Positions 22,326-46,809 of a stretch of DNA of 64,000 bases are shown one piece after another. The notes beneath the pieces are model-generated. The model was not told where the DNA came from. It saw only the letters and a list, made by a program, of their open reading frames with translations, and searched no databases. The stretch is from Candidatus Omnitrophota bacterium (GTDB lineage Bacteria; Omnitrophota; Gorgyraeia; Tantalellales; Tantalellaceae): positions 40,218-104,217 of the forward strand of contig JADGBR010000006.1 of the NCBI GenBank assembly GCA_015231405.1, given 5' to 3'. Both the position numbers and the translations under genes were made by a program. Numbering within the stretch: position 1 is the stretch's first letter; each line of letters opens with the position of its first letter.

Positions 22326-22326
22326 T

Positions 22327-27163: not shown

Positions 27164-27188
27164 TTATGCCCTCCATATGGACCAGAGC

Positions 27189-30348: not shown

Positions 30349-31472
30349 ACCTCCATGAACATCTCGCGTCTACATAAAACGGCGGCCCCTACCGAAGCCG
30401 CCTCCTTGCCCAGAACACCCGGGACAATCCTTATTCTCTCGGAAATATCCTTTGAAACAAATCTTTTCAGGCTTTCCCTCATGCAGTCGATAAAGCCGCC
30501 TTCGACACGTTCGATCCCTCCGCCCAGGAGGACGCATTCGATACCGAACATATTAATGAGATATGCCACCCTTACCCCGAGCGCGGACGCGGACCTTTTG
30601 ACCAGGTCCACCGCCAGCTCATCCCCTTTTTCGGACGCCCGGAGAACTACATCCATGTTTATCCTGTCGATATCCCCTTTTACCATCTCGACTATCTCCG
30701 TGCCGACACCCCTTGAAACAAGGTCCTTCGTCGTAGCGACCATGCTGAACTGGTTCCAGGGTCTCAAATAGGCTCCCTGCCTCCCTTCGTTATATTCGTC
30801 AGCCTCGAATATAGATTCTTTTTTAAAAATTACGCCTATCCCTATGTCCGAATACATAAAGAGAACGCTGTCCTCCGATGCATTCGGGTTATATTCCCTG
30901 TCACCGTAACCGGAGGCCGTGGCGGATTTAGTATGAAATACCCTGGAAGAAAATATCCCGCTCACGCCCGAAGCCAGGACATCAACAGCCTTTTCGCTGA
31001 TAGCTAGGATGTCTTCCGGTACGGCGAGTCCAACGAATTCGAATTTTTCGGATTTGAACCTGGTTTTAAACGAGATCTCCTCCACTATCCCCGAAATATC
31101 TTTATTTTTCTTGTTCTTTTTGGTCAACAGATCTATATGCAGTTTTTCTTGAGCGATAATTTTTCCCCTCGTATCTATGGATGCCAGATACGCCGTCTCT
31201 TCGCGGCAACCGATACCAAGTATTTTATCTCCCGTATCCTTGACGCTCAACTTGCCTGAATTTGGTGCGCCTTCCAGAATTTCCTTTTTTACAAAAAAAT
31301 CAAGATAGTTAGAAATAAAATCAACTGAAAGTTTAGTGCTGTTAATGATCTCATCGACCGAAAACGCTTTCTTCTTTTTGATAAAATGAAATATCTCCAA
31401 AGCCATTTGCTCTTTTTCTGTTTCAGGCTGTATGCTGAAAGCTGCTGTATTGCTTTTAAAATTTTTAACCAT
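30345..31472 (-). CDS. ROK-family protein (N-terminal wHTH plus sugar-kinase fold); regulator or kinase
   Basis: C-terminal GVLGKEAASVGAAVL and a ROK glycine-rich region (LLGGGIERVEGGF). Confidence 0.65.
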   Translation of the reverse strand: MVKNFKSNTAAFSIQPETEKEQMALEIFHFIKKKKAFSVDEIINSTKLSVDFISNYLDFFVKKEILEGAPNSGKLSVKDTGDKILGIGCREETAYLASIDTRGKIIAQEKLHIDLLTKKNKKNKDISGIVEEISFKTRFKSEKFEFVGLAVPEDILAISEKAVDVLASGVSGIFSSRVFHTKSATASGYGDREYNPNASEDSVLFMYSDIGIGVIFKKESIFEADEYNEGRQGAYLRPWNQFSMVATTKDLVSRGVGTEIVEMVKGDIDRINMDVVLRASEKGDELAVDLVKRSASALGVRVAYLINMFGIECVLLGGGIERVEGGFIDCMRESLKRFVSKDISERIRIVPGVLGKEAASVGAAVLCRREMFMEV

Positions 31473-32248: not shown

Positions 32249-35200
32249 TTAATTCGTCCTCAGATCCCTGGACCCGTCTGTCTGCACGGCGTAAGTGAAA
32301 GTCATCGTAACCATATCGTCGTCATTCATTCCGTCCTGATCGGCATTGACCGTGTCTATCCTCATTTTCGCGTAATAACCTTCCTGCGTTACTAAAAGAT
32401 AAACTTTGCCCGCGGTAGCCGGGCCATTGACTTCGTTCGTTATGTCCGGAGCGGTGGAGAGGCTGTCAAAAGTATAAGTCCCGGAAACATCCTGAATTTT
32501 AGCGTTTCCATATGTGAACAAGAGGTTCGGAAATTCGAGAACAAAATCTCCTACCGCGTCAGCCTGCGCCCCCGATGAAAAGAAAAACCCTCTGTCCATG
32601 TTGGAGGCCATCGGAAGGTCTACCGACGTTACCGTTCCTGTCCTTACGCTAAGTACCGAAGACACTCCTCCGGTTTCCTGTGTAGCGCCAGATCCGGGCT
32701 GCTCAGGGTTCCTCGTATCCCTGTCAACCCTGATAGCCTCGACGACGGCCTCGCCGAGTCCGCTGGACGAGGCTATTTCAGGAGAAAGCGTCGCGTATAT
32801 GAGATTGCCCTTAAGATTGTAGATCTTCATTTTACCGTCTTCCAGTAAAAATATCATTCGGGTCGAACCGCTTGTCCTCTGCTGCTGGCCAGTTTTCTTC
32901 GGTGTCTGGGTTTTCTGCCACCGTGTTTCGGCAATAAATAACGCGTTGTTCTTCTCTATACGGTCGATGAATATCGTAAGCCTTATATCGTCGAACATAT
33001 CAAAATCGAACCTGATCCCTTCTTCCAGAAATATCTTATTCCCCAGAAAATCCCTCGATATCAGAGAAGACACATTCGCGATATTTTTAGACTCGTAAGA
33101 ATCGGCTAATTCCTTAACGGCGTCCCTGATCAGCACGGTATGATCTATATCCCGGTAAACGAGCGTCTGTCCGTTCGAAAGGAGATCGAATACTTTTTCA
33201 TCGGACTCGAACTTAAGTTTGATCCGCGGAATGTACTGTTTTCCAGGGACAGGATGGAACGAATACCGGATTTGCCTGTCTACGGGTATTTCTTTAAATA
33301 CCGATCCGTCTTCCGATATAAGGACTGTCTTTATACCGTAAAGGTTATCGAGCCACGCGGTGATCTCTATAGTATTGTCGCGAAGTTCGCTCGAGGTAAG
33401 CACCATTTCGCCGGGAACATTGGGTATCGTGAGCGTGTTCACTCTCACGTCATACACCCTGTACCCGGACTTTTCAGCGTCTTCCTTCTCCCTTTTCTTC
33501 CTTTCTTCTTCCTCTTTCCTCTTTTCCTCATCGCGTTTAGCCGCGTATTCCGCGTCCATCCTGGCCTCATATATCTTCATCGACGCCTCTATAGCTTTAT
33601 TCGTCTCCGCGGAAAAGATCTTGTATATGGCCGGGGTCTTCCCTCCGTCAGGGGAGGCGTAGGCCTTAAGCCATTGGTCTAATATGGGCCGGTCGGCTTC
33701 TGCGTTGAGCGTGGAAGCGATAACGGCCCTTTTACCCATGGCTGTGACGTAATCGGAAGACGCGAACTCGTTACGGACTTTCAAGTTGATCTCGTCTATC
33801 TTAGGGAGAAAAGATATAAAGTCGTTGATCTCGTTCGCCACGCCGAAACTCGCGTTAGCTATCTCGGCGCATTTATTAAAAATATCCTCTCTTACCCTGG
33901 GATTCCCGTTCATGTCGACATCCCACAGGTCCTCGCCGTATTTATTCTCAGGGTTTATGACGCCTTGTTCGGGGTAGCCTTCAGCGATTACCCTCACCAG
34001 ACCGAGATCCGGATCGGAGTTAACTTTTTCCTCGAACTGCCAGCGGGTATTGAGAGCGAGCGCCGCGAGATGCCCCGCGCGCGAGGCGGGTTCACCCAAT
34101 ACCGCGAATTTCTTCCTTTCTTCTTCAAGAAAAGCTTTAACCTTAGCCCCATCGGCTCCGGAATCGAACATCTCGGCCACTTGCTTGCGTAGCTTAGCGA
34201 GATGCCGGTATGCGGAGGCGCTGTCTTCGAACCCGGCGGCTTTGGCCTCAACTATGACCGCCTTACCCTTATTTACGGCGAATATGGCCGCGTTCACCAC
34301 ATCGGCCGCGCCGGTAGAATATCTTTGAACGAATCCCCTGGCTTTTGATACCTTATTATCGAACTCAGAGCGCATAGCGGTGATATTCTTTTTATACACA
34401 TCATTCTCTTCCGGGATCCTCGCGATGATTTTATTTAAAGATATCGATTGAGATGAGGCTGAGGCGGTAAGATACTCCACATTGTAAGAGCCAGGGCTCA
34501 CTCCCAACCCCGCCAAAGCGTTCATAACAGGGGTCGCCTCCCCTTTAAGAGAAGAAACAAAATTGTCATATTCCACCGGATATCTCCGGATTACAGGAAG
34601 CAGATCGTCGTTAACCTTAATGATGACCCCGTAAAAATTCATTTCCTGAGTAAGCTCCTGGGGGCCCATGCCTCTTATGACCTGAGGAGCTAAAAGCTCA
34701 GGCAAGGCGTAGCTCGAGCTTTTTCCCTCAAGAGGATTATGGTTCCCACCCTTGAAGGAAGCCTTAGCTTCCTTGTTAAGTTCCGCGCCTATCTCCTCGA
34801 ACTTCTTTCGCCCGGCGGCTTCTATATTGTAGAGCGCTGTTTGATATGAAGCTATGAGCGCCTGCCGCTCCGCCTCATCTTTGACATGTGCCGGCGCAGG
34901 CGTAATATTAATTTTCCCTTTTTCTTTCCCGGCTGAATTGATCTCACCGTCTTTCTTTGCCGCCATCTCAATTTCAGCGGCTGATAACCTTTTCTTGAGC
35001 TCTTCCAGGCGTTTCCCCAGCCTATCGTCCTCTTCCGCTACACGGGGACGCTCGCTATCGATATCGGCTTTTGTCCTATCCAGATTTTTTCTGAGCTCGT
35101 ATATCTTTTTTTTGGCGTTCTCAATGGCTTCTAGGACATAATAGAACTTCCTATAAATAAGGCCCGTCTCTCCGAGATCGTCCGGGTTCTCCCCTTCTCT

Positions 35201-35737
35201 CATCACCTTGATCTTAAGATCGATGGCGTCCATGCTCAACGTTTTTTGGACTTCCGCGATCTCCGGAAGCAGCTTCTGGGCTCCTTCGCTCAGCCCCTGT
35301 ACGACTTTTTTGTAGGGGGAGAGCATACTGTCCTGCATCTGGTCCGACGCGTATTCGCAGGCGCAGGCGAGGATGATCAGCTTAATGGACTGCTGGGCGA
35401 AACCCAGCACAAGATTGACTTTCTGATACGTGTCAAACCCGAGCTTTATAGTGGATTTAATAAGGTTTTTCTGCAAGAGGTCCCTCATCCTCTTTTCGAG
35501 AGCGTCGAGCTCGTCATAGGCCTTGCCAAGGGACTCTACCATGCCAGGATAATTCTTCAGGAATTCATCCATACGGACAAGGGCGTCGTGGACTATCTTG
35601 TATTTCGCCTCGGTCTCGCGTATCTCGTTCTGGAGGTAATAAGCATCCTCCGCTGCGAACGCGTCAGGGGCTGTTCCCGGCATTGACGACAAAACCATAG
35701 AAAAGGACAAAATCGCTCTGACTGTTTTTCTGATCAT
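32249..35737 (-). CDS. Giant secreted paralog A: signal peptide, KE-rich coiled coil, conserved C-terminal module of about 350 aa including an NTF2-like domain
   Basis: 1162 aa. Signal peptide MIRKTVRAILSFSMVLSSMPGTAPDAFAAED. The C-terminal block (…LISRDFLGNKIFLEEGIRFDFDMFDDIRLTIFIDRIE…MIFLLEDGKMKIYNLKGNLIYATLSPEIASSSGL…) is shared with paralogs B and C. Confidence 0.7.
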   Translation of the reverse strand: MIRKTVRAILSFSMVLSSMPGTAPDAFAAEDAYYLQNEIRETEAKYKIVHDALVRMDEFLKNYPGMVESLGKAYDELDALEKRMRDLLQKNLIKSTIKLGFDTYQKVNLVLGFAQQSIKLIILACACEYASDQMQDSMLSPYKKVVQGLSEGAQKLLPEIAEVQKTLSMDAIDLKIKVMREGENPDDLGETGLIYRKFYYVLEAIENAKKKIYELRKNLDRTKADIDSERPRVAEEDDRLGKRLEELKKRLSAAEIEMAAKKDGEINSAGKEKGKINITPAPAHVKDEAERQALIASYQTALYNIEAAGRKKFEEIGAELNKEAKASFKGGNHNPLEGKSSSYALPELLAPQVIRGMGPQELTQEMNFYGVIIKVNDDLLPVIRRYPVEYDNFVSSLKGEATPVMNALAGLGVSPGSYNVEYLTASASSQSISLNKIIARIPEENDVYKKNITAMRSEFDNKVSKARGFVQRYSTGAADVVNAAIFAVNKGKAVIVEAKAAGFEDSASAYRHLAKLRKQVAEMFDSGADGAKVKAFLEEERKKFAVLGEPASRAGHLAALALNTRWQFEEKVNSDPDLGLVRVIAEGYPEQGVINPENKYGEDLWDVDMNGNPRVREDIFNKCAEIANASFGVANEINDFISFLPKIDEINLKVRNEFASSDYVTAMGKRAVIASTLNAEADRPILDQWLKAYASPDGGKTPAIYKIFSAETNKAIEASMKIYEARMDAEYAAKRDEEKRKEEEERKKREKEDAEKSGYRVYDVRVNTLTIPNVPGEMVLTSSELRDNTIEITAWLDNLYGIKTVLISEDGSVFKEIPVDRQIRYSFHPVPGKQYIPRIKLKFESDEKVFDLLSNGQTLVYRDIDHTVLIRDAVKELADSYESKNIANVSSLISRDFLGNKIFLEEGIRFDFDMFDDIRLTIFIDRIEKNNALFIAETRWQKTQTPKKTGQQQRTSGSTRMIFLLEDGKMKIYNLKGNLIYATLSPEIASSSGLGEAVVEAIRVDRDTRNPEQPGSGATQETGGVSSVLSVRTGTVTSVDLPMASNMDRGFFFSSGAQADAVGDFVLEFPNLLFTYGNAKIQDVSGTYTFDSLSTAPDITNEVNGPATAGKVYLLVTQEGYYAKMRIDTVNADQDGMNDDDMVTMTFTYAVQTDGSRDLRTN

Positions 35738-35799
35738 GTAAGTTAACCTCCAAATTGATAGTTCTGTACCGATATGCCTGAAGACCCGAAAACTTTGTT

Positions 35800-38700
35800 C
35801 TAAAAATTCCTCGACCCGTCGCGCTGGTACTTGTACCTGACTACCGTCGTGAACGGAAAGGCGGCCGCCGTCATGCTCGTTATCGATATGATCGCGTACT
35901 TCCCGTCGGGAAGCTGGAGCGCGTAAGTATGTCCCGTCGCCGCGTCAAGCCATCCTCCGGCATCATATCCTGAAGACGGCGCTTCGGTGACGCTGTCAAT
36001 AGATACCCCGCCGAGATCCACGATCCCTCCTGACGGATTTACCTTAATAAAAACGTCCTCTCTCCTGAAATCCGAGCTAAAAGCGAAAATATCCCTGGTT
36101 ACAGCGCTACACGCGAAAGTGTAGCCGTCGCAATCATGGAAACCGTATTGCGTAAGCGTTACCGACCCTGACTCCGACCTGGCACTCGTTCCGTCCGCGG
36201 TTTCGGTATCCGTATCGCCCTCAGTTGTCCCCGCTCCGGGCTGGACCGGGTCACGGTCGTCCCTGGCTGCCCTGACCTCATCGATGACCGTAACTCCTAA
36301 CCCGCTCGATTCGGCTATCTCCGGGGAAAGCGTCGCGTATATCAGGTTCCCTTTAAGGTTCTTTAGCTTCATCTTCCCGTCCTCGAACGCGAATATCATA
36401 GAAGTGTTCCCGGAAGTTTTCTGCTCCTGGCCGGTCTTTCTCGGACTTTGCGTTTTGTTCCATTTCGTATCTGCTATGAAATATGCCCCGCCCTTCTCTA
36501 TCCTGTTAATAAAAATGGCAAGCCTTATGCTGGAGAACATATCAAAATCAAACCTCACGCCTTCCTCAAGAAAAGTCCTGTTCCCGAGAAAATCATCGGA
36601 AACATATTCGCTGAAAGCCGATACGTTCTGCTGTTCGTATGCGTTGGCTATCGCCATGATAGAGTCCTGGACCAGCTTTACAAAATCAATATCCTTATAC
36701 GTAATGCTTTGGACATACGGGAAAAGCTCCTGGGTCACTTCTCCGGCTTCACCCATATCTATCCTTAAGATAAAGGTGTACTCGGCGTCAGGCGTCGGGG
36801 CAAAAGAATATTTCACATCTGCGCTATTCTGGATCTTCGTCCAGCTCCTGCCGCCATCCACTGAGATCTCGACGCCCCGTGATCCCGCGACTGTAGAAAG
36901 CTTCCCGGCGACCTCTATCTTACCGTTCTTGAGGTCCATTTTAGAAAGAACCACTGTTTGAGGCATGCTAGCCGCGTTGTATTTGTTAAGCGTCGCGCTC
37001 AGGACTTGTATGGCCTGCCGGCCGGCTTCATCCTCCGCTTCCTTCTTCTTTCTCTCCTCCTCTTCCTTCTTTTTCCTCGCCGCTTCTTCTTCCGCGGCTT
37101 GACGTTCCCGTTCCCATCGTTTTTCTTCATCTATTTTGTCCTGGCCGGACTTTTTGAGCTCATCCTCCACCTCTTTCTCCAGGGCCATCCATCCGCCTAA
37201 GGATTTCTCAATTGCGTCTGTCTTCGCGAACATGGAATATAGCCGGACGAAATGTGAAACATTCTCCTTCTGGAATTTCTCGAGCTGCTTGATCTTTTCC
37301 TGGACATTGTAGCTGTTCTTCTTAATATCGTCGAATTTCTGCTTCGCCTCGCCAAGATATTTATCGGCCAGTGCCGCCCTCTCGTCAAAAGTCTTTTTGA
37401 CAGTTTCGTAGGTCTCCTGGTACACCTTTATCCTGTCGGGTATGGTCAACCATTTATCAAGCGGAGGGTAGTAGGACTGGGCGAAATCGAATCTATACCT
37501 GATATTTGTCCCTATGCCTTTACGCAGGTTGTCCAGCTTAGAGACGAGATCGCTGTATTTCGCCCAGGCCTCTTTCATCTGTTCCAGGTACGCATACCCT
37601 CGCATCTTTTCGGGCAGGGTGTACATAAAAGCTGAGTTATCCGGCATAATGTACATATCGCTCTGCCTTCTTATTTCCTGTTCAAGCGTAAGATCAGAAA
37701 GGCGCAGCATGAACATATCCAGGGTGATATCGTAGTATATCCTGGCATACGCCGAGGCCACCTGGTCCGCGTGCTCTATCGTAAAAAGATCGCTTTCTCT
37801 CTTTGCAACGGCTGCTATGGCCTTATCCATTTCCTCGAGTATATCCTTTCTCTCCATCACCTTCGCCTGCGCCTCGGCGTCGTTATCTCCTCCCCACACC
37901 CTCGGGATACCCACGCTTTCGGCAGGAAGTATCTCCCCTCCCAGTTGCGCGTTATAGAACTGGCTTGTGGAAACGATATTTTCAAATCCCCACGACTGTT
38001 TACCGTCATATGGGATGAGCAGTCTTTTCGGCATTGAGCTCTCAAAACTTTTCGCGATGCTGATAGCGGACGCCGCGTATTGTTCGAATGCTTTTTTTTC
38101 TTTCGCGTAGAGTTCGGCCGCGGCTGACCTGTCTCCGGAAAGGTCCACTTTCATCTGTTGCACCTCTACAAGCTCCCGTGACGCGTCGCCGGGCATCTCG
38201 TATACGAGACCTTCCCGAGCGGCCATGTTCTCGGATATGATGGTGTAGAAATAGGCGGATCCCCATCCATCGGGAAAATTCAATTTGGTAAGGGCCTCCT
38301 GGGATGTCTCGCTGCCGGCTTTCCGATAGGCTTCCACGGCTTTATCGAGCTCTTCCCTGATCTTTTCGGCCTTTTCCCTCATATAAGCCCTCATCTTACT
38401 TCCCCGCTCGAGAGCTTCCGCGACAATGACCTGCTCTTCGGCGCATAGCACCTTGTAATCATTATAGAACTGCCCCTCGACTATACTGCCCCAGGCCCGA
38501 TTCATATAAGGCCCGCGCGCCGCATTGTACACATCGGATAACGCGTTACTCTGGGCGACAAGCGCGTCGTGTTCCGCTCTATTCCTGGCATTTTGGATCC
38601 TTGCCCAGATCGCGGCGAACTGAGGGTCATATTGTGCGGCGAGGGCCGCTAGGATCTCATTCGCCTTCCGTTTGCCGTCATCCATTTTCTTACTGGCCGC

Positions 38701-39966
38701 TTGAAGCGCCGCCTTCCTTTTCGACACGTAATCTTCATACATCCGTTCGATCGCCGCCGTATCATACCCCTCGATCCCGGATTCCTTGATCTCGGTGAAA
38801 GCCGTTTCTAAAGCGCTTAAAATTGAGCCATGATCGAACCCTTCATAAGGGAAAGACTGGACATATTTAGCCATCCTGCCGTTGTATTTATCTTCGTCCG
38901 ATTCCTCCGTCCGGACAAATGTCTCGGCATCCTGTTTTTTGGCGCCATTAATAAGGATATCAAATTCATCTATCATTTTTAGAGCCGGATCAGCTTCCTT
39001 CCTGGCCGCGTCGACGGCCGCGGTGACTCCGGCGGAAGCGCCCCTGGTTTCCTGCACAAGAGCGTCCAGTTTCGACCTCAATTCGTTCTCGATCTGTTTT
39101 TTCTCGAGGATATCGGCCTTCATGCGTGAAAGTTCGGCGATAATGGCGTTTTTCATATTGTCGCCTTCGTTATTTTTACCCTTCAAGTACCACCCGCCGT
39201 AAGCAAGCTGCTCGTCCCATTCCCGCTGAACGTAAGAGGCGATGTCAACGGTCTGGATCCATTCGACAAAGCCTCGGGGATTTTGTTGCGGGTCATGCCC
39301 CGCCAGAACGACCTTCATCTTTCCCTCGAGCGCGGAACTGAAGGCGTACTGAACGACATATTTGCCCAAAGCCTCTACCATCGACTGGGCCAGTTTATAC
39401 CATCCCCAGCCCGGCACGAAATATGTTATTATCTTTTCTCCCACATCCTTACCGAGAGATCTTAAGGCTTCTTCCGGACCGTCCTTTTTCCAGCTGGAAA
39501 TAAAATTATACGTCATCTGGACGCCCTCAAGACCGGCCTTAAAAGCGTTTACCTGGGTATCCAATTTTGCGTTAATATCGATATCGGCTGCCGACCACAA
39601 AGCCCCGACGTTCTTCCCTTCTATGATGGCTTTATGCATCATATCCGGGATCTGAGCCTTAAAAAGTTCCTCACGCAATTTTTTCTTTACATATTCCTCG
39701 AGCTTCTCCTTGGCCGCCTCTTTCAGCCGGTCGGAACTCTCTTCCCAGACTCGCTCTTTCCCTTTTTTGAGGATATAGGCGACTTTGGCTTTGTCGGTGG
39801 GGAGGCTGTTAAGTTCCGCGACGTCGTCGACAAAGTTAGTGAATTGTTTGATAAGTTCTTTAGATACCTTTTCCGTAGCCTCGTCCTCTGAGAAAGCCGG
39901 AGGGCACGCCGAAGTTATCGTGAAACAGAGAATGGTTATTGAGGCAAGTATCTTTTTTATGTTCAT
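35800..39966 (-). CDS. Giant secreted paralog B (1388 aa), same architecture
   Basis: Signal peptide MNIKKILASITILCFTITSA. KE-rich coiled coil (…EEEAARKKKEEEERKKKEAEDEA…). Conserved C-terminal module (…VSDDFLGNRTFLEEGVRFDFDMFSSIRLAIFINRIE…KLKNLKGNLIYATLSPEIAESSGL…). Confidence 0.7.
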   Translation of the reverse strand: MNIKKILASITILCFTITSACPPAFSEDEATEKVSKELIKQFTNFVDDVAELNSLPTDKAKVAYILKKGKERVWEESSDRLKEAAKEKLEEYVKKKLREELFKAQIPDMMHKAIIEGKNVGALWSAADIDINAKLDTQVNAFKAGLEGVQMTYNFISSWKKDGPEEALRSLGKDVGEKIITYFVPGWGWYKLAQSMVEALGKYVVQYAFSSALEGKMKVVLAGHDPQQNPRGFVEWIQTVDIASYVQREWDEQLAYGGWYLKGKNNEGDNMKNAIIAELSRMKADILEKKQIENELRSKLDALVQETRGASAGVTAAVDAARKEADPALKMIDEFDILINGAKKQDAETFVRTEESDEDKYNGRMAKYVQSFPYEGFDHGSILSALETAFTEIKESGIEGYDTAAIERMYEDYVSKRKAALQAASKKMDDGKRKANEILAALAAQYDPQFAAIWARIQNARNRAEHDALVAQSNALSDVYNAARGPYMNRAWGSIVEGQFYNDYKVLCAEEQVIVAEALERGSKMRAYMREKAEKIREELDKAVEAYRKAGSETSQEALTKLNFPDGWGSAYFYTIISENMAAREGLVYEMPGDASRELVEVQQMKVDLSGDRSAAAELYAKEKKAFEQYAASAISIAKSFESSMPKRLLIPYDGKQSWGFENIVSTSQFYNAQLGGEILPAESVGIPRVWGGDNDAEAQAKVMERKDILEEMDKAIAAVAKRESDLFTIEHADQVASAYARIYYDITLDMFMLRLSDLTLEQEIRRQSDMYIMPDNSAFMYTLPEKMRGYAYLEQMKEAWAKYSDLVSKLDNLRKGIGTNIRYRFDFAQSYYPPLDKWLTIPDRIKVYQETYETVKKTFDERAALADKYLGEAKQKFDDIKKNSYNVQEKIKQLEKFQKENVSHFVRLYSMFAKTDAIEKSLGGWMALEKEVEDELKKSGQDKIDEEKRWERERQAAEEEAARKKKEEEERKKKEAEDEAGRQAIQVLSATLNKYNAASMPQTVVLSKMDLKNGKIEVAGKLSTVAGSRGVEISVDGGRSWTKIQNSADVKYSFAPTPDAEYTFILRIDMGEAGEVTQELFPYVQSITYKDIDFVKLVQDSIMAIANAYEQQNVSAFSEYVSDDFLGNRTFLEEGVRFDFDMFSSIRLAIFINRIEKGGAYFIADTKWNKTQSPRKTGQEQKTSGNTSMIFAFEDGKMKLKNLKGNLIYATLSPEIAESSGLGVTVIDEVRAARDDRDPVQPGAGTTEGDTDTETADGTSARSESGSVTLTQYGFHDCDGYTFACSAVTRDIFAFSSDFRREDVFIKVNPSGGIVDLGGVSIDSVTEAPSSGYDAGGWLDAATGHTYALQLPDGKYAIISITSMTAAAFPFTTVVRYKYQRDGSRNF

Positions 39967-39994
39967 CTCGCGCTCCTTTGGCGGTCATGTCGGA

Positions 39995-40510
39995 TCAAAA
40001 GGGGGAATTCCCTTTCACATCGTACAGCTTCCATTCCTCTCCCGACTTTTTAAACACGAAAAGACATTGCCCCCGGCTCTTACGCTGGCTTCCGGTGTCG
40101 AACGGCACGTCCTTCTTGTTCCAACTGAAAGAAACGGCGAGTTTGTCTCCTTTCGGAATAACCGTATTTATGAAATACTCTATGTCCAGGGGTCTTGCCG
40201 AATAAAATGAGTTCTCGACGCCGCTCACAAAAGACTGGCCGCCAGAGGGAAAATCATCGTCCACAATATCGGCGAAAGATCCCCTCGTGTACCCACGGTA
40301 AGAGTCGAAGATACGGGATAGAAGACTATCGGCTATCTCCCTTTCTTTTCCGGGAGCTATAACTTTCTGGGCTCTTCCCCTTTCGACCGTCGTTCCGGCC
40401 ATAGCCCACGCGTAAGATGTCAACGCCGTCAAAACCAGTAGCGACGCGAATACCCGGCAAAAACGATCAGAAATTCGAAACGAGCTTGGTGATAAACCTT
40501 GTTTCATCAT
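39995..40510 (-). CDS. Small secreted protein (171 aa) consisting of a stand-alone copy of the paralogs' conserved NTF2-like domain
   Basis: Signal peptide. The segment …DDDFPSGGQSFVSGVENSFYSARPLDIEYFINTVIPKGDKLAVSFSWNKK…GQCLFVFKKSGEEWKLYDVKGN aligns by pattern with RDFLGNKIFLEEGIRFDFDMF…IAETRWQKTQ…TRMIFLLEDGKMKIYNLKGN in the giant paralogs. Confidence 0.55.
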   Translation of the reverse strand: MMKQGLSPSSFRISDRFCRVFASLLVLTALTSYAWAMAGTTVERGRAQKVIAPGKEREIADSLLSRIFDSYRGYTRGSFADIVDDDFPSGGQSFVSGVENSFYSARPLDIEYFINTVIPKGDKLAVSFSWNKKDVPFDTGSQRKSRGQCLFVFKKSGEEWKLYDVKGNSPF

Positions 40511-42233
40511 AAGACTGCTCCTTGTCCTGCTGATTATAGTCGTTATGTTCCCCTCGAAAGACCAGACGCGTGCTCCTTTTCTTCTCCATGAGAAAATTCA
40601 TTTCGAAAAATGTCGTGTAATTAAAATAGTTCTGCATGGGCTGGTTGGAATCGCTGGAGTTCACGTTATAACCAAAATATAGCATATGGGCGCCATAGAT
40701 GTTGTACTGGCCCTGGAACCCTACCCCGGTGTTAAAATCCTCCTTAGGGTACTTTTTGGGGTCGTGATAATCCAGGTTCAAATACCCCGAAAGATACGCT
40801 CGGCGCTTCAATATGTACTGTTCCCGCCCGAGATTCGTGCCGAGGCGGTAAAAGTAGTCGGAGTTAGATTTGACATATTTGTCGATGAAACCCCTAAATT
40901 CGCCGAAAATCCCGTAGCTTGTCTTATCGTCCAGATTATCGTTGACCGCAACGCCAGGCGTGTAAGTGACCGCGCGCAAGGTGTTAAAAACGTCGTCAGA
41001 CCTTCGTTCCTGCACGTTCGTGTAAGCCCTGACGCTGAACGAAGGATCGCTTTCGTACGGACGCATATTGAGCGTCATGTATTTTTCGTCGTATATGGTG
41101 CGTTTTTTCAATGTGCTTCCGGTAAGATGGTTCCAGTAATAATTCTCTGTGACGGTCGCCCTCATCTTTTTAGTGATATCATAATCAAGAGTTCCCTGGT
41201 GCTGCATTTTATCGGGCATAGCTGAACCCGCGTCGGTATAAAATTTAGGCTGAACGTAGTAGAAAAGATAAGTGCCGGTAAAGGGTCCGTATTTCAAACG
41301 GGGCCTGGCCCTGAACGCGTTGCCGTGCTTGTCGTCCGAATACGCCGCTTTTCTTTCGTCAAGGTTGTGATAACTCGTACCCAACTCATAGATCAGTGAG
41401 AAGTACTCTTTCGTGGCTATCTCGCCGTCCACGCTGACCACCGTATTGCTCATGTCCGGGATAGGCGTCCCGAGCCCTGTGGAATCGCTGGTAGCTCTGT
41501 CGTCACGGTTTGTAACGGCCTGGGTCCCTATCCTGAAAGTTTTGAACGCTTCCTCTCCTTCCTCCTTAAAAAGAAAGATATCGGTCTTCCCTCCGTACAC
41601 ATTTCTCCAGAATGCGCTCATATCGTTATCAGGGCTCTGACTGCGCGCGGCGACCCCTTGCAAATGCACGCTGTCGTATTCTTTTATCTCAGCGTTGAAC
41701 CCTTCGAGTGAGTTACCCAGAGTGAACTGGCTGAAGTCCCCGTAGAAATCTCCGAAGAGGAGCATATTGTCGGGGTTGGATATCTGGGTAGTAAGCTGTT
41801 TGACCCGGAGGTCCTTCCTCCTTTCGATACGACGGTCATCGGTCCTCCGGAGGAACAGCTGGCTTTCAAAACTGTAGTCTGAGATCAATTTTTCATAGCT
41901 ATTGATATTGACCTCGGTATTCTGATAAACTCCCCTTCTGAGAAATGTTTTCGTTCCGTTGCCTCCGGTAGCGTTAAAATTTATCTCTTCCATAACGCTC
42001 CCGGTTATCATTCCGGAACGGTCAGGGCCATAGTTGCCGTAATTTTTAAAATCGAGAAGATCATCCACCCTATCCTCAAGGGTGAAGGTCTTATTTACAT
42101 CAGGTGCTCCTCCGGCTGTAGAACCCTGTCCGAGATAATAAACCTCCGCCGCTTCAAGTGTTAACGGCCGGCAGAAAATAACTATTCCCGCCAGAACGAA
42201 CGACACAGCTACATCTCTCGACCTTTTTCCCAT
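40467..42233 (-). CDS. Outer-membrane beta-barrel protein (porin/transporter-like), hypothetical
   Basis: 588 aa. Signal peptide. Alternating aromatic/hydrophilic beta-strand pattern throughout. The C-terminus ends in the aromatic signature …KLVSNF. Confidence 0.6.
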   Translation of the reverse strand: MGKRSRDVAVSFVLAGIVIFCRPLTLEAAEVYYLGQGSTAGGAPDVNKTFTLEDRVDDLLDFKNYGNYGPDRSGMITGSVMEEINFNATGGNGTKTFLRRGVYQNTEVNINSYEKLISDYSFESQLFLRRTDDRRIERRKDLRVKQLTTQISNPDNMLLFGDFYGDFSQFTLGNSLEGFNAEIKEYDSVHLQGVAARSQSPDNDMSAFWRNVYGGKTDIFLFKEEGEEAFKTFRIGTQAVTNRDDRATSDSTGLGTPIPDMSNTVVSVDGEIATKEYFSLIYELGTSYHNLDERKAAYSDDKHGNAFRARPRLKYGPFTGTYLFYYVQPKFYTDAGSAMPDKMQHQGTLDYDITKKMRATVTENYYWNHLTGSTLKKRTIYDEKYMTLNMRPYESDPSFSVRAYTNVQERRSDDVFNTLRAVTYTPGVAVNDNLDDKTSYGIFGEFRGFIDKYVKSNSDYFYRLGTNLGREQYILKRRAYLSGYLNLDYHDPKKYPKEDFNTGVGFQGQYNIYGAHMLYFGYNVNSSDSNQPMQNYFNYTTFFEMNFLMEKKRSTRLVFRGEHNDYNQQDKEQSYDETRFITKLVSNF

Positions 42234-42282
42234 AATTGGTCCCTTCCTTTTCTTGTATTTTAATTATTTCAAGCAGGCGTTC

Positions 42283-45200
42283 TTATTGCGTCCTAACGTT
42301 CCTCGTCCCATCGGTCTGGAGCGCGTACTGGAATTCCAGCGTATCAGGCGGACCGAGAGTCCGGTTGGTCACCGTCATCTTCCCGTATTTTGCATCTGCG
42401 GTCTTAAAAGCGTAAACTTTTCCCACATCCATATTGTCAACAAAAGGGGCGTATCCAGATGACGGGGCTTCATTGAGCGCCCCGAACGTGGAAGTTGTAA
42501 TTTCCTGTATCTCGGACGCGCCTACGGCGATAAATCGCATCCCCATAACATAATTGAAATCACCGGTATCCACGTCAGCCTGAGCCCCGGACGAGAAACT
42601 AAATCCCTTTACATTGCTAGGAGGGGGACCGGGTTCGGATGTGACAGACCCTGTCCGGACGGATATCACGGCGGTCGAAGTCGTCCCTCCGGCCTCAACG
42701 GTCTCGCTGGATCCGGGCTGTACGGGATCACGGGTTTCCTGAGCCTGCTCTATCTGCTCGACGACGGCTTGCGCCAACCCGCTGGATTCGGCTATTTCCG
42801 GGGAAAGAGTAGCGTATATTAGGTTCCCTTTAAGATTGTAGATCTTCATCCTTCCGTCCTCCAGAACAAAGATCATCTCAGTTTTTCCTGTCGTCCTTTG
42901 CTGTTCCCCGGTCTGTCTCGGTATCTGGGTCTTGTTCCACGTTGTCTCGGCAACGTATTGCCCGTTACGTATCTCTATCCTGTTGATGAATATGGTGAGC
43001 CTTATTTCAGTGAACATATCGAAGTCGAACCTCACTCCTTCTTCCAGAAAAGTCCGGTTGCCTATGAAATCCCTCGATATATTCTCTTCGAATAAAGAAA
43101 CGTTCTGGGCTTCATAGGCGTCGGCTATCTTCTTAGCGGCGTCGACGAGAAGCTGGCTATAGTCGATGTTCCTATATATCAACCCGTTGATGTTCTCGAA
43201 CGGCTCTAGAGTGACCTCATCGAAATCCACGGTCTTGATCTTGAAAACGACCTGATACAATTGCTCGACCGCCGGCATGAAGGAAAAGGATAACATCTGG
43301 TTCTTCTGGCATTCGTTCCATATCCGTCCGCCGTCGGTCGAAACGAGTATCTTATCTATCCTGTCCAGCGTGTTCAGCCTGGCTGTAACTTCGATAGCGT
43401 TATTCTTCAGGTCAGTATTCGTGAGGATAACGTCACCGGAAGCGTTTTTTAGGCTCACTGTATTTACGCGCGCGTCATAAAGCTGATAAAAAGAAAACCC
43501 TTCACCCTCCCCCACTGGAACGGTTTGAGAGAAAGACGCCGTTTTCTGTCCGGGCTGGCCTCCCTGTCCAGGCTGTCCCCCTTGCCCCGGCTGCCCGCCC
43601 TGCCCTGGCTGCCCACCCTGCCCTGGTTGTCCTCCCTGTCCTGGTTGTCCTCCCTGTCCTGGTTGTCCACCCTGTCCCGGTTGTCCACCCTGTCCCGGCT
43701 GGCCTCCCTGTCCAGGCTGGCCACCCTGCCCCGGTTGTCCGCCGGGCCCGCTTGTCTTAGTGGTTTTAAGAAACTCCGTGCGCTCTTCCAGGATCTTATC
43801 GAGTTCATTCATTATGGAGACATATCTTTTGCCCAGCGAATGATCGAAAGGAGCCGGGTTTTTCTCATAGGCTTTGTCCACGGCATATGGCTGGCTCGTA
43901 TCACCGCTTGAAATTATGGCACCGGCTATTGCCCCAATGACCGGCATCATCTGCTGCATGAACTCGATATCACTCGCGTCATATTTGACCTTCGGAACTT
44001 CCTCCTCGAACTTCGCGACCGTGCTAGCCTGGATCACGATCTCCGTATCGCCCGAAGGAGCGAAAAAATTGTCTTCCGCGGCGTATTCAACTCCGGGCAA
44101 GGTAAGGATCTTCTCGAGTACCTCGTTAACTCCGGAGGCGCTATTCTTAATGAACTTGTAGCCCGGATATTGCTGCCACATAGTTCTTATCTCGTTGGCG
44201 AAAGTCCCCGTATCGTTCTTAGTCATATAGTGTTTGTAGGGTTTATCCATCAGTATCAAATTGCCGTCTTTCTTGAAAAGGATCTCGTACTCCCCATAGC
44301 TGAACTCCCTAAGAACTCCTTTTTCCTTCTGGTCCCGGAAGAACTCCTCTACCGCCGCTTTTTTAGAGTTGATCCAGTCCGCCCCTTCCTGACGTTTCGC
44401 CATTTCCTCGTCGGCATATTTACGTATCTCGTCGAACCTGGCCTGTGACCTGTTGATGAGATCCTGAAGTTTCTCTATGGCATTGCCCAGGTCCGCCATC
44501 TCTTCCATTTGCCGGTCGAAATTTTCGGAAACACCGAGCACCTTCATTTCGGTGAGTTCACTGTCCGACGGTTTAGGTATATCCTTAAGTTCCGCCGCGG
44601 CTCTCTGCCAATCCGGGTAGGAACCCTGGACATTCGCCATTCGGTACCCACCTTCCCTGCCTATCTCCCCGGCGAAATCGAAGTTTACAGTAGCGGCCTT
44701 CTGGTTCATTTCAGAATATAGCTCGGGAACGCTTTTCGGGTCGTTAAAAGTACCTACTCCCCCATACTCGTAAGATTTCGTTTTTTCTACCGCCGCGTTA
44801 ATGGCGTTCATGTTATCCGAAAAATCTTCATCGGCCTGGGTCCTCGTCCCTGTCCCCAGGATACTATTGACGGGAATTATTTTGGCTGACGCCTGCACAA
44901 GCCCTGTATATTCATACCATTGCCTTTGCCTTACCCTCTTAAGGTCGTTAAAAGTATTGACGAGCCCTGATATCTCGGAATTGGTCTTAACGATCACGGC
45001 TTCGGTCGTATTCCTGAGCGTCTGGCTAACGTCCCCGGCCAGATAATATGCGCTCTGAAGAATGGATAACTCGCCGCCGAGGGCGCTAGTCTCCTTTCTT
45101 ATCGCTTCCATCCGCGTTGAGTTGCCGCTCATTGCCGAGACAAGGCTGCTCCTTAAGGCTTCGTCATAGGAATCGTAATACTGTCTCTGCAATTTCGCGT

Positions 45201-46809
45201 TATCCGCCTCACGGTTCTTATATTCCTCGTTTAGCGCCCCTATCCTCTCATTAATTGGACCTTGCGCGTTCTCATACGCTTTCGCGAGCTTTTTAGGAAG
45301 TTCTTCGTTATAGTAGCCGTTCATCCCTTTCCTGGCGGCGCCCTCCCATTCGGATAGGAGGGTATACGCTTCGGAAAATTTGCCCTTATTCAAAGCTTCC
45401 AGCACCTTATCGTAAAGATCATCACCAGAAGTTCCCCAGTCCTTGAACGGCGCGAGAACTGGAACGAATGCGGCGTTATAATAGCCCATCTCGGGAGCGC
45501 TTATCGTTTTCTCTTCTTCCTCATAAACGGTCGCGGGATCGGTTATGACAGCTTTTTCTTTAGCTCCGAGGGCTTTTTCATAATCCTTTTCCAGCGCCCA
45601 CCACAGCTTCAGCTCGGACTTTAGCGACGCGGAAAGATCGGCCTCTCCGATAAGATTGGAAGCGCTGGACGCGGTCACAAGCGAACTTTTCCAGGTATTA
45701 ATGGCGTTCTGAACTTCGTTCATCCTCTTAAGGTTGGCGATAAGCGTCCCGGCCCCGACGCGCGCGGCCGGACTTTTCGCGAGGAGCTCCTTGTATTTAG
45801 GCAGCTGTTTACGGTATTCTTTTTTGGCGTTGAATTCGCTGAGAAGTTGCGGGATATTGTTCGAAAAGGCTCTTAAACGGTAGGCGAACTTCTTGAATTC
45901 AGCCATCTCATGCCCGGCCCGCTGCTCCGCCCACCGCTCGGTCACCTGGAGGTTAACGTCCTTAAGGAGTTTCATTATCCATGTGCGCGCCTTGTTCCGA
46001 TATTCCACGGAAAGCGCCATAGTCTCGGCGCTTTCGGTCGTGTCCTCTCCCGAGCCTGCCGACATCAGGTCCCTGGCCCAATCCCCCCAACTTTGTTCGG
46101 GCCATTCCTCCCCGAGAACGGTCGTTACATAAGATTTGACCATATCGCGGACCTCGGCGTTGGTCACGATGTATTTGTTAAAGAAATAGTCCGCGGTCTT
46201 TTCGTTGACATCTATCAGCTTAGGAGAGCCGCCCTTGGGATCGGACGTACCCAAAAGACGCCTGTCGTTCTCAACTTTATTGTAAAGCGTCTCTACCTGG
46301 AGCTCGGCGCCCGACTCTACTACCAGCTTATGGGACTCGTAGGCCATCTTAACGGCGGCCCACGCCACTTTTATAACGGGATGATCTATTTCCCCGACGA
46401 CAACGTCCACTGTCAGGAAAAGTGCTTCGTCATATTTCCCTTCTCCGAGCATGGTACCGAGCTTTTGGACGTTCTCTATGATATCCAGGATCTTGTCTAT
46501 TTTGTCCTTGATCTGCTTAGTGTATGCGTCGGTATCGTCGATCTGCCCTTTCCATAGTTTCTCGTATTCAAAGAGAGATTCCCATCCAAGCTCGTTGACT
46601 TTGTCCTGGCCCAGGGCCTTCAATCCTTCCGTCGCTCCGTCCTCCGACATCATGGCTTCCGCCACATCAAGGCCGAGACTTACGCCGGTACCCAATTCAT
46701 CCGGGTCGGTAAATTTCCCGCCCTTGGACCCTTTTTCCTCGGCACTCGCGATATTGAAGTTGAGGACCATTAATGACAACAGGATGAAAACTGATATTTT
46801 ATTAGCCAT
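42283..46809 (-). CDS. Giant secreted paralog C (1508 aa) with an internal GGQPGQ tandem repeat
   Basis: Signal peptide MANKISVFILLSLMVLNFNIASA. Conserved C-terminal module (…ISRDFIGNRTFLEEGVRFDFDMFTEIRLTIFINRIE…KIYNLKGNLIYATLSPEIAESSGL…). Confidence 0.7.
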   Translation of the reverse strand: MANKISVFILLSLMVLNFNIASAEEKGSKGGKFTDPDELGTGVSLGLDVAEAMMSEDGATEGLKALGQDKVNELGWESLFEYEKLWKGQIDDTDAYTKQIKDKIDKILDIIENVQKLGTMLGEGKYDEALFLTVDVVVGEIDHPVIKVAWAAVKMAYESHKLVVESGAELQVETLYNKVENDRRLLGTSDPKGGSPKLIDVNEKTADYFFNKYIVTNAEVRDMVKSYVTTVLGEEWPEQSWGDWARDLMSAGSGEDTTESAETMALSVEYRNKARTWIMKLLKDVNLQVTERWAEQRAGHEMAEFKKFAYRLRAFSNNIPQLLSEFNAKKEYRKQLPKYKELLAKSPAARVGAGTLIANLKRMNEVQNAINTWKSSLVTASSASNLIGEADLSASLKSELKLWWALEKDYEKALGAKEKAVITDPATVYEEEEKTISAPEMGYYNAAFVPVLAPFKDWGTSGDDLYDKVLEALNKGKFSEAYTLLSEWEGAARKGMNGYYNEELPKKLAKAYENAQGPINERIGALNEEYKNREADNAKLQRQYYDSYDEALRSSLVSAMSGNSTRMEAIRKETSALGGELSILQSAYYLAGDVSQTLRNTTEAVIVKTNSEISGLVNTFNDLKRVRQRQWYEYTGLVQASAKIIPVNSILGTGTRTQADEDFSDNMNAINAAVEKTKSYEYGGVGTFNDPKSVPELYSEMNQKAATVNFDFAGEIGREGGYRMANVQGSYPDWQRAAAELKDIPKPSDSELTEMKVLGVSENFDRQMEEMADLGNAIEKLQDLINRSQARFDEIRKYADEEMAKRQEGADWINSKKAAVEEFFRDQKEKGVLREFSYGEYEILFKKDGNLILMDKPYKHYMTKNDTGTFANEIRTMWQQYPGYKFIKNSASGVNEVLEKILTLPGVEYAAEDNFFAPSGDTEIVIQASTVAKFEEEVPKVKYDASDIEFMQQMMPVIGAIAGAIISSGDTSQPYAVDKAYEKNPAPFDHSLGKRYVSIMNELDKILEERTEFLKTTKTSGPGGQPGQGGQPGQGGQPGQGGQPGQGGQPGQGGQPGQGGQPGQGGQPGQGGQPGQGGQPGQGGQPGQKTASFSQTVPVGEGEGFSFYQLYDARVNTVSLKNASGDVILTNTDLKNNAIEVTARLNTLDRIDKILVSTDGGRIWNECQKNQMLSFSFMPAVEQLYQVVFKIKTVDFDEVTLEPFENINGLIYRNIDYSQLLVDAAKKIADAYEAQNVSLFEENISRDFIGNRTFLEEGVRFDFDMFTEIRLTIFINRIEIRNGQYVAETTWNKTQIPRQTGEQQRTTGKTEMIFVLEDGRMKIYNLKGNLIYATLSPEIAESSGLAQAVVEQIEQAQETRDPVQPGSSETVEAGGTTSTAVISVRTGSVTSEPGPPPSNVKGFSFSSGAQADVDTGDFNYVMGMRFIAVGASEIQEITTSTFGALNEAPSSGYAPFVDNMDVGKVYAFKTADAKYGKMTVTNRTLGPPDTLEFQYALQTDGTRNVRTQ
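43549..43756 (-). repeat. In-frame 18-bp tandem repeat encoding (GGQPGQ), about 11 copies, within paralog C
   Basis: DNA shows near-identical cctggctgcccaccctgc-type units. The protein reads SGPGGQPGQGGQPGQ…GGQPGQK. Confidence 0.85.

What the first reader, a model, noticed from the sequence alone, without database searches (positions are those of the whole stretch)
32249..46809. A 14.6-kb cluster of three giant paralogous secreted proteins, a stand-alone copy of their conserved domain, and a dedicated outer-membrane beta-barrel
Five co-directional minus-strand genes sit immediately downstream of tRNA-Glu. Three encode proteins of 1162, 1388 and 1508 aa. Each has an N-terminal signal peptide and a long, divergent K/E-rich alpha-helical (coiled-coil) region. 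All three share a C-terminal module of about 350 aa that aligns almost residue-for-residue (DF[LI]GN+xFLEEG[IV]RFDFDMF…IRL[AT]IFI[DN]RIE…W[QN]KTQ.P[KR][KQ]TGQ[QE]Q+T[ST]G.T.MIF…EDG+MK[IL][YK]NLKGNLIYATLSPEIA.SSGL…RDP.QPG…). Between them lie a 171-aa secreted protein that is an isolated copy of the central part of this module and a 588-aa OMP ending in …VSNF. Extensive paralogy, secretion signals, a private OMP and tRNA-adjacent placement are hallmarks of an accessory cell-surface or secretion system (S-layer/adhesin-like, or an effector family with its own OM translocator). I do not recognise the conserved module as a named family beyond its NTF2-like core.
Basis: partly seen in the sequence, partly recalled or inferred. 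Interest (0 to 1): 0.9.

Follow-up and report, generated by a model that had tools for sequence, protein, structure and literature searches.

The report
Uncharacterised outer-membrane barrel with NTF2-domain partners
This five-gene operon from an uncultured Omnitrophota bacterium encodes a very large outer-membrane pore with no plug of its own, a small partner protein and three giant exported proteins that carry a copy of that partner's fold. This gene set is conserved across the phylum, matches no described system, and its function is unknown.

Summary
Five co-directional genes encode three giants (1162, 1388, 1508 aa) sharing a ~400-aa C-terminal module (39-49% identity), a 171-aa protein copying the module's core, and a 588-aa OMP. 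The window is a Candidatus Omnitrophica MAG.

New facts:
- The OMP models confidently as a 26-strand barrel with loops of 16 aa or less, no plug and a conserved charged lumen. It has no Pfam or PDB relative.
- The module is an Asp-box Ig-like domain, a highly conserved NTF2-like domain, a near-invariant PxQPG linker and a divergent HmuY-like domain.
- Barrel -> small NTF2 protein -> giant recurs in about 20 Omnitrophota loci with unrelated flanks, and no other gene is linked.
- Minimal (barrel + Ig-NTF2 protein) and split versions exist in Thermodesulfobacteriota- and Thermodesulfovibrio-labelled genomes.
- The ~1000-aa N-terminal "bodies" are two conserved orphan families, not generic coiled coil.
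- Codon usage is native, so this is not a tRNA-linked island or an assembly artefact.

Best reading (inferred): a barrel-and-partner complex, LptD/LptE- or MtrB/MtrA-like in logic but not homologous, in which NTF2-like domains dock large envelope proteins to the barrel. Function and topology are untested.

The parts
42283..46809 (-). C1508, first gene of the operon. It has a signal peptide (MANK...IASA|EEK), a ~1000-aa 'C-type' body, a (GGQPGQ)x13 spacer and the C-terminal module.
   Evidence: ORF. Body is homologous to 15 other Omnitrophota giants at 25-39% identity over about 900 aa. No Pfam, NCBIfam or PDB hit.
43546..43740 (-). 18-bp tandem repeat (10.8 copies) encoding the GGQPGQ spacer of C1508. 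It sits between body and module, where A1162 and B1388 have an E/R/K-rich stretch.
   Evidence: TRF, translation, composition.
42289..43494 (-). Module of C1508: D1 Asp-box Ig-like (aa 1106-1214), D2 NTF2-like plus two helices (1215-1366), PxQPG linker, D3 HmuY-like (1381-1507).
40467..42233 (-). OMP588: a 26-strand outer-membrane beta-barrel (aa 74-587). It has a signal peptide, the conserved mature N-terminus AEVYYLG, a short helix at 52-59, loops of 16 aa or less and no plug domain. It ends in the beta-signal-like ...VSNF.
39995..40510 (-). S171: a small exported NTF2-like protein whose start overlaps the OMP stop by 44 nt. It is a stand-alone paralog of module domain D2, and its orthologs end in the conserved ...G(D/N)(S/N)PF.
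   Evidence: Weak DUF4440 hit at E 0.005. Of 31 orthologs, about half carry a lipobox.
35800..39966 (-). B1388: a giant in the canonical position after S. It has a signal peptide, a ~980-aa 'B-type' body, an E/R/K-rich spacer and the module (D1 984-1092, D2 1093-1244, D3 1262-1388, i.e. nt 35803-37017).
   Evidence: The B-type body is not detectably related to the C-type body.
32249..35737 (-). A1162: the last gene. It has a signal peptide, a ~750-aa body (first ~230 aa shared with L018 and L005 paralogs), an E/R/K-rich spacer and the module (D1 757-863, D2 864-1015, D3 1028-1161, i.e. nt 32255-33469).

Best explanation
The five genes encode one self-contained, vertically inherited outer-membrane complex of a previously undescribed family.

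**Shown.**
- OMP588 is a 26-strand barrel with short loops and no plug of its own. Its lumen is lined with conserved charged residues.
- It is translationally coupled to a small exported NTF2-like protein (S171).
- It is always co-encoded with one to three large Sec-exported proteins. Each carries the module: Asp-box Ig-like domain, NTF2-like domain, PxQPG linker, HmuY-like domain.
- Every non-barrel component contains exactly one NTF2-like domain. This also holds in genomes where the giant is split into separate 'body' and 'module' proteins.

**Inferred.**
- The NTF2-like domains are the docking units of the system. They either occupy or cap the otherwise open barrel lumen (as LptE does in LptD, or MtrA in MtrB), or they pair with each other (as NTF2-like heterodimers such as NXF1-NXT1 do), or both.
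- This docking tethers the ~1000-aa bodies to the outer membrane through a spacer.
- The nearly invariant extended linker may thread the barrel, so that the variable, swappable C-terminal domain (HmuY-like or Kre9-like) faces the outside. In that case the cassette would be a display or anchoring device for large envelope proteins of these ultra-small cells, supplied by Sec and BAM only.

Which side the bodies lie on, and what they do, is unknown.
For: - **Coupling and synteny.** The OMP stop and S start overlap or abut in the window and in other loci. Barrel -> S -> giant occurs in about 20 loci with unrelated flanks, and no other family is linked.
- **Co-divergence.** Mantel r 0.57-0.74, p 0.0005.
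- **S is a paralog of D2**. About half of the S orthologs are lipoproteins.
- **Minimal unit.** Barrel + secreted [Ig-NTF2] protein occurs in distant, other-phylum loci L040 and L041.
- **Split version.** In L039 and L042 the body is a separate protein that ends in its own NTF2-like domain. By Rosetta-stone logic this supports NTF2-mediated association.
- **Module constraint.** D2 plus helices is the most constrained part (60% mean identity vs 34% for D1 and 28% for D3). The linker QPG is invariant and disordered in the model.
- **Spacer.** An E/R/K-rich or GGQPGQ spacer precedes the module.
Against: - No physical interaction was tested, and no complex model could be run.
- Co-divergence is expected for any linked, vertically inherited genes.
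- S (29% mean identity) is much less constrained than D2 (61%) and lacks D2's invariant R156, D158 and D160. The two are therefore unlikely to bind the same site in the same way.
- Some loci lack S (L025, L029, and the second pair in this same MAG), so S is not obligatory.
- Two loci show barrel + S with no giant nearby (L014, L026).
- The lumen could instead be closed by barrel collapse or by the 45-aa N-terminal extension.
- Surface exposure is inferred only from analogy with HmuY.
- D2's very high conservation would also fit an enzymatic or ligand-binding role.
Confidence: 0.45

Rival explanations
1. Dedicated secretion system. The barrel is a translocon, two-partner or usher-like in logic, through which the giants are exported and released or loosely attached as adhesins or effectors. 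S acts as a periplasmic chaperone or pilot that mimics the module core.
For: - The cargo has variable bodies and multiple paralogs.
- Omnitrophota are proposed epibionts or predators that use large surface proteins (PMC10066038).
Against: - There are no POTRA, TPS, usher-plug or chaperone domains.
- The conserved part is C-terminal and is the most constrained region of the protein, which is unusual for a mere secretion tag.
- Minimal versions have only a 360-aa partner.
- No energy source or accessory gene is linked.
Confidence: 0.2
2. Periplasmic scaffold or outer-membrane tether. The giants stay in the periplasm, hang from the barrel by the module, and connect the outer membrane to peptidoglycan or the inner membrane. 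The logic would be that of Thermotoga Omp-alpha/Omp-beta, OmpM or TolA.
For: - E/R/K-rich helical or Gly/Pro/Gln-rich spacers resemble the periplasm-spanning segments of TolA and TonB (my knowledge; composition).
- NTF2 domains of Csd6, Pgp2 and Bd1075 (cell-wall enzymes) are among the fold hits.
- The cassette is a conserved, native, core-like gene set.
Against: - There is no peptidoglycan-binding domain (SLH, OmpA_C, LysM, SPOR) and no inner-membrane anchor.
- Body families are swappable and vary in number, which is atypical for a structural tether.
- This reading does not explain a plug-less 26-strand pore or an HmuY-like terminal domain.
Confidence: 0.15
3. Ligand-capture and uptake device. 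The HmuY-like domain (and/or the NTF2 cavity) binds a tetrapyrrole or other hydrophobic nutrient at the surface, and the wide barrel imports it without TonB.
For: - D3 is related to the hemophore-like HmuY family.
- NTF2-like cones commonly bind small hydrophobic ligands (fold hits).
- Omnitrophota are thought to be host-dependent.
Against: - There is no invariant His or Met pair in D3 (invariant list).
- D3 is the least conserved domain (28%) and is replaced by an unrelated Ig-like domain in many orthologs, including minimal systems.
- This reading does not explain the ~1000-aa bodies.
Confidence: 0.1
4. Nothing special: a generic porin that happens to sit among unrelated large hypothetical genes, or a duplication or assembly artefact.
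For: The barrel gives weak hits to the generic BBP2_2 family in 3 of 44 orthologs.
Against: - Synteny is conserved in more than 30 loci and across phyla.
- The paralogs are 39-49% identical, and each is closer to orthologs in other species than to its neighbours.
- The same sequence is deposited independently.
Confidence: 0.02

Closest known systems
LptD-LptE (LPS translocon)
   Same: A 26-strand outer-membrane barrel whose lumen is occupied by a small, often lipidated partner protein in 1:1 stoichiometry. Here the barrel also has 26 strands, and the small partner gene is translationally coupled and is a lipoprotein in about half of the orthologs.
MtrB-MtrA-MtrC porin-cytochrome complex
   Different: There are no haem motifs (5 Cys or fewer per giant), no PF11854 hit and only 9% identity. 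The partners are NTF2, Ig and HmuY-like domains.
Chaperone-usher pores (FimD/PapC)
   Different: Ushers have 24 strands, an internal plug and N- and C-terminal periplasmic domains. No PapD-like chaperone gene is present here.
HmuY family hemophore-like lipoproteins (HmuY, Tfo, BfrB)
   Different: D3 is below Pfam's threshold, has no conserved haem ligands, and is a C-terminal domain of a giant protein rather than a lipoprotein. There is no HmuR-type TonB-dependent receptor nearby.
NTF2-like heterodimers and envelope NTF2 domains (NXF1-NXT1, VirB8/TcpC, Csd6/Pgp2/Bd1075)
   Same: D2 and S have the NTF2-like cone fold. A small stand-alone NTF2-like protein pairing with an NTF2-like domain of a large protein is the NXT1-NXF1 arrangement.
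   Different: Similarity is at fold level only (8-15% identity). No family membership was found, and pairing here is inferred, not shown.
Pfam BBP2_2 (PF10082, putative beta-barrel porin 2)
   Same: This is the only curated family giving any signal for the barrel (3 of 44 orthologs, best E 1e-5).
   Different: The window's OMP does not hit it. BBP2_2 is itself uncharacterised and associated with polysaccharide loci (my knowledge).

Membership tests
LptD/LptE | 26-strand beta-barrel | tested here: met
   DSSP on the AF2 model gives 26 strands.
LptD/LptE | Sequence membership (LptD/OstA Pfam models) and an N-terminal beta-jellyroll | tested here: not met
   No Pfam or NCBIfam hit. Only a 45-aa N-terminal extension is present. 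The single PDB LptD hit, E 1.1, was obtained with the module profile and not the barrel profile, so it is noise.
LptD/LptE | LptE-family partner | tested here: not met
   S171 has an NTF2-like fold. No LptE model was hit.
MtrB/PioB porin-cytochrome | PF11854 membership and multihaem (CxxCH) partners | tested here: not met
   No Pfam hit. The giants have 1-5 Cys and no CxxCH motif.
Chaperone-usher | Usher (PF00577) with a plug domain, plus an adjacent PapD-like chaperone | tested here: not met
   No Pfam hit. No plug insertion in the model. No other conserved neighbour.
Two-partner secretion / Omp85 | POTRA domains plus a 16-strand barrel, and a TPS domain in the cargo | tested here: not met
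   No POTRA, ShlB or TPS hits. The barrel has 26 strands.
Autotransporters (type V) | Barrel fused to the passenger in one polypeptide | tested here: not met
   The barrel is a separate 588-aa protein, and the giants contain no barrel.
T9SS cargo | C-terminal Por_Secre_tail / TIGR04183 domain | tested here: not met
   No hit in Pfam or NCBIfam for any giant or for 29 module homologs.
S-layer / OmpM-type anchoring | SLH or another known anchoring domain | tested here: not met
   No SLH or other anchoring-domain hit.
HmuY (PF14064) | HmuY fold | tested here: met
HmuY (PF14064) | Sequence membership above Pfam's gathering score | tested here: inconclusive
   5 of 29 homologs hit weakly (best E 0.0034) and the window proteins do not. 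The profile against the PDB gives E 1e-4.
HmuY (PF14064) | Haem-coordinating residue pair, lipoprotein status and an HmuR partner | tested here: not met
   No invariant His or Met in D3. D3 is an internal or C-terminal domain. No TonB-dependent receptor is linked.
NTF2-like superfamily (SnoaL/DUF4440 clan) | Alpha+beta cone fold | tested here: met
NTF2-like superfamily (SnoaL/DUF4440 clan) | Membership of a specific Pfam family | tested here: not met
   S171 scores 17.8 bits against DUF4440, below the 25.2 cutoff. SnoaL_3 is hit weakly in 3 of 29 homologs.
BBP2_2 (PF10082) | Pfam membership | tested here: not met
   0 hits for the window OMP. 3 of 44 orthologs hit weakly.

The most novel reading that the evidence does not exclude
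This is a new class of outer-membrane machine, a 'barrel-NTF2' system. A plug-less 26-strand barrel is filled and gated by NTF2-like domains, and it threads a conserved linker to hold very large modular proteins across or on the outer membrane. It would be ancient (minimal forms in Thermodesulfobacteriota and Nitrospirota) and expanded in Omnitrophota, where its giant cargoes would form the cell coat or host-contact apparatus of these ultra-small, possibly epibiotic bacteria.
Probability: 0.3. Interest if true: 0.85.

Novelty: new variant of a known kind. Interest (0 to 1): 0.68.

Why it matters
Only a handful of architectures are known by which diderm bacteria place large proteins in or on the outer membrane, and only two families of 26-strand barrels (LptD, MtrB) are understood. 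Both work by housing a partner protein.

This cassette would add a third, unrelated family with a different partner fold. It is conserved across a whole uncultivated phylum whose cell biology is almost unknown. It accounts for several of the largest 'hypothetical' exported proteins in these small genomes.

Divergent versions occur in genomes labelled as cultured thermophile genera (Thermodesulfatator, Thermodesulfovibrio), so the idea is experimentally testable. The cassette has only three component types and needs no accessory genes, which also makes it suitable for heterologous reconstitution.

Tried and rejected
- **Assembly duplication artefact: rejected.** The paralogs are 39-49% identical, and each is closer to orthologs in other species.
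- **tRNA-linked genomic island: rejected.** GC is flat, GC3 is 0.599 vs 0.591, RSCU r is 0.939 vs a 0.942 baseline, and the cassette sits in different contexts in every genome.
- **Known secretion, anchor or S-layer families** (autotransporter, TPS, usher, T9SS CTD, SLH, OmpA_C): no hits.
- **Homology between the two body families:** hhalign on full alignments and on N-terminal sub-alignments gives probability 3% or less, despite similar-looking motifs.
- **Profile searches of both body families and the barrel against PDB sequences:** nothing meaningful.
- **Promoter and terminator scan:** not above the shuffle expectation, so uninformative.
- **Rfam scan:** only the two tRNAs.
- **AFDB fold search:** the library was unavailable.
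- **Exact-sequence contig look-ups for P0009, P0049 and P0094:** not on record.
- **Literature:** two Omnitrophota genome papers, a giant-gene preprint and a 2026 complete-genome preprint do not mention this cassette.
- **Haem binding by D3:** considered, but no conserved ligand residues were found.
Full report
**1. Observation**

- A1162, 32249-35737
- B1388, 35800-39966
- S171, 39995-40510
- OMP588, 40467-42233
- C1508, 42283-46809

Intergenic gaps are 28-62 nt, and S171 overlaps the OMP stop by 44 nt, so this is one tight operon ordered C -> OMP -> S -> B -> A. BLASTP confirms a shared C-terminal ~400 aa at 39-49% identity (E 1e-76 to 1e-108). S171 matches the central ~110 aa of it at 22-29% identity (E 1e-6 to 1e-10). 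tRNA-Glu(CUC) lies about 350 nt beyond the 3' end on the opposite strand. No curated Pfam or NCBIfam model reaches threshold on any of the five proteins.

**2. Source and native status**

OMP588 is 100% identical to HQL30_04480 of a 'Candidatus Omnitrophica bacterium' MAG, on a 124.7-kb contig. The cluster is compositionally native:
- GC is 0.48-0.52, like the rest of the window.
- GC3 is 0.599 in the cluster vs 0.591 elsewhere.
- Cluster-versus-rest RSCU correlation is 0.939, equal to the 0.942 obtained between two halves of the other genes.

The 'accessory island next to a tRNA' idea is therefore not supported.

**3. The barrel**

An AF2 model built on 44 orthologs is confident (pLDDT 89, pTM 0.77). 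It shows a single barrel of 26 strands (aa 74-587), preceded by a 45-aa extension with one short helix.
- All 25 inter-strand connections are 16 aa or less, and there is no plug domain.
- The lumen-facing strand positions are polar (mean Kyte-Doolittle -1.45).
- They are more conserved than the lipid-facing ones (0.67 vs 0.51).
- They include 39 polar residues conserved at 90% or more, 21 of them charged.

**4. The module**

An AF2 model of C1508's last 404 aa (pLDDT 88) resolves the following parts:
- **D1:** a beta-sandwich carrying an SxDGGxxW Asp-box.
- **D2:** an NTF2-like alpha+beta cone followed by two helices.
- **Linker:** a disordered stretch containing the nearly invariant R(D/N)PxQPG(A/S)G.
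- **D3:** a C-terminal beta-domain ending ...YAVQTDGSRN..T, or ...YKYQRDGSRNF in B1388.

Mean pairwise identity across homologs is 0.34 for D1, 0.60 for D2 and its helices, 0.48 for the linker and 0.28 for D3. The NTF2-like core is thus the functional heart of the module.

**5. The small protein**

S171 and 30 orthologs are 146-180-aa exported proteins that align to D2 and end in a conserved ...G(D/N)(S/N)PF. About half carry a clear lipobox, and the rest have SPase-I-type signal peptides. S lacks D2's invariant R156, D158 and D160 (by inspection). It evolves much faster than D2 (29% vs 61% mean identity).

**6. The bodies**

The ~750-1100-aa N-terminal regions are not generic coiled coil.
- They contain 8-15% aromatic and about 10% Gly/Pro residues.
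- They fall into two conserved families, a C/A type and a B type, each 25-39% identical over about 900 aa between species.
- The two families are not detectably related to each other or to anything in Pfam or the PDB.
- An E/R/K-rich stretch (A, B) or a (GGQPGQ)x13 repeat (C; 18-bp tandem repeat) separates body and module.
- There are no transmembrane helices other than the signal peptides.

**7. Conservation and spread**

Module and barrel homologs are almost all from Omnitrophota MAGs and are all annotated as hypothetical.

A scan of species-representative genomes returned 34 loci. HMM mapping shows barrel -> S -> giant (1295-1552 aa) in about 20 of them. One or two extra module paralogs occur in nine loci, and a few loci lack S or lack an adjacent giant. 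Flanking genes are unrelated from genome to genome, and clustering of all neighbours finds no other recurrent family. Barrel, S and D2 distances are correlated (Mantel r 0.57-0.74, p 0.0005). The same MAG also carries a second, minimal pair, HQL30_08495 (barrel) and HQL30_08490 (a 448-aa module protein).

An exhaustive HMMER search with the barrel profile finds 360 clusters (233 at E <= 1e-10). These comprise a small core family plus a halo of 510-560-aa barrels. Some halo members are labelled Thermodesulfatator autotrophicus and Thermodesulfobacteriota. In two such loci the barrel is followed directly by a secreted ~360-aa protein made of D1, an NTF2-like domain and a different C-terminal domain.

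In L039 and in Thermodesulfovibrio-labelled contigs (L042, L043) the system is split into barrel (533 aa), stand-alone module (456-458 aa) and stand-alone C-type body (1147-1186 aa). That body ends, after an E/R/K-rich spacer, in its own NTF2-like domain.

Two conclusions follow. The ancestral unit is barrel + [Ig-NTF2] protein. And every non-barrel subunit carries exactly one NTF2-like domain.

**8. Mechanism: what is shown and what is inferred**

Shown: the composition, the folds, the coupling, the synteny and the spread described above.

Inferred:
- A 26-strand barrel with short loops and no plug must be occluded by a partner. The co-translated NTF2-like proteins are the only candidates. 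The conserved charged lumen fits a specific protein-protein interface.
- The fission variant, in which the covalent body-module link is replaced by an extra NTF2-like domain, suggests that NTF2-NTF2 pairing holds subunits together. S may therefore pair with D2, or cap barrels.
- The invariant extended linker between D2 and the swappable D3 is a candidate barrel-threading segment that would put D3 outside.
- Only Sec and BAM would be needed, which is consistent with the absence of any other linked gene.

I cannot decide on which side of the membrane the bodies lie, or what they do.

Points that weaken the simple plug model:
- S and D2 are very differently constrained.
- S is absent from some loci.
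- D2's conservation would also fit a catalytic or ligand-binding role.

**9. Comparison with known systems**

In logic the system is closest to LptD-LptE and MtrB-MtrA/C, but it is a member of neither. The strand count is met, while sequence membership, accessory domains and partner type are not. It is also not a chaperone-usher, TPS, autotransporter, T9SS or SLH system (see the membership table). D3 is a fold-level, borderline-sequence relative of HmuY. D2 and S belong to the NTF2-like superfamily but to no curated family. Searches of Omnitrophota genomics papers found no mention of this cassette.

**10. Verdict**

This is a real, conserved and undescribed outer-membrane gene cassette. The 'dedicated OMP + paralogous exported proteins' reading is supported, and the 'tRNA-adjacent accessory island' and 'coiled-coil' details are not. 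Function remains inferred. Interest is moderately high, because it points to a third, unrelated family of partner-housing giant barrels and to the envelope biology of an uncultivated phylum, with testable relatives in cultured thermophiles.

Noticed in passing
window 18921-29885 (- strand): An RND efflux operon with two tandem AcrB-family pumps (1134 and 1094 aa), a HlyD-type adaptor (472 aa) and an unusually long 898-aa outer-membrane factor. The OEP domains of that factor are preceded by a ~400-aa N-terminal region with weak TPR hits.
   Followed up: no
window 59114-63481 (- strand): A 1455-aa ORF whose only Pfam hit is MutS domain V (aa ~1017-1182). The large flanking regions are unassigned.
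   Followed up: no
window 29962-30348 (- strand): A 128-aa ORF with a CxxC...C...C zinc-ribbon-like N-terminus and a very basic R/K/Y-rich tail. Its stop overlaps the start of the ROK-family gene (30345-31472).
   Followed up: no
window 43546-43740: An imperfect 18-bp tandem repeat (10.8 copies, 85% matches) encoding (GGQPGQ)n in C1508. It is a candidate for length variation of the spacer between strains.
   Followed up: partly
Same MAG, other contig (proteins P0009 / P0049 = HQL30_08490 / HQL30_08495): A second, minimal copy of the system in the same genome: a 590-aa barrel (41% identical to OMP588) next to a 448-aa signal-peptide + module protein. By locus-tag numbering there appears to be no S gene between them. 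The DNA could not be retrieved.
   Followed up: partly
window 42140-42150 region (OMP588 aa 29-36) and A1162 aa 29-36; orthologs in L003-L038: The mature N-terminus of the barrel, AEVYYLGG, is conserved across Omnitrophota orthologs but absent from the distant 510-560-aa barrels. A-type giants start their mature chain with a similar (D/E)DPYYL(Q/E)xEI motif. This may be chance, or it may be a shared docking strand.
   Followed up: partly
L042 11633-19507 (Thermodesulfovibrio-labelled contig DYIN01000003.1): The split cassette is followed by eight further co-directional genes (143-735 aa). All have signal-peptide-like N-termini or no features, and none has a Pfam hit. The system may be larger in that lineage.
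   Followed up: no
L001 5676-7538; L040 9606-10685: CARDB-type adhesion-related domains accompany the system. A 620-aa CARDB protein sits just upstream of the barrel in L001, and the 359-aa Ig-NTF2 partner in L040 has a CARDB-like C-terminal domain.
   Followed up: no
window 35350-35440 (A1162 aa ~100-127): This is the only strongly hydrophobic internal segment in any of the giants (Kyte-Doolittle 1.79 over 19 aa, containing a CxC). It is conserved in the L005 paralog. Its role is unknown.
   Followed up: no
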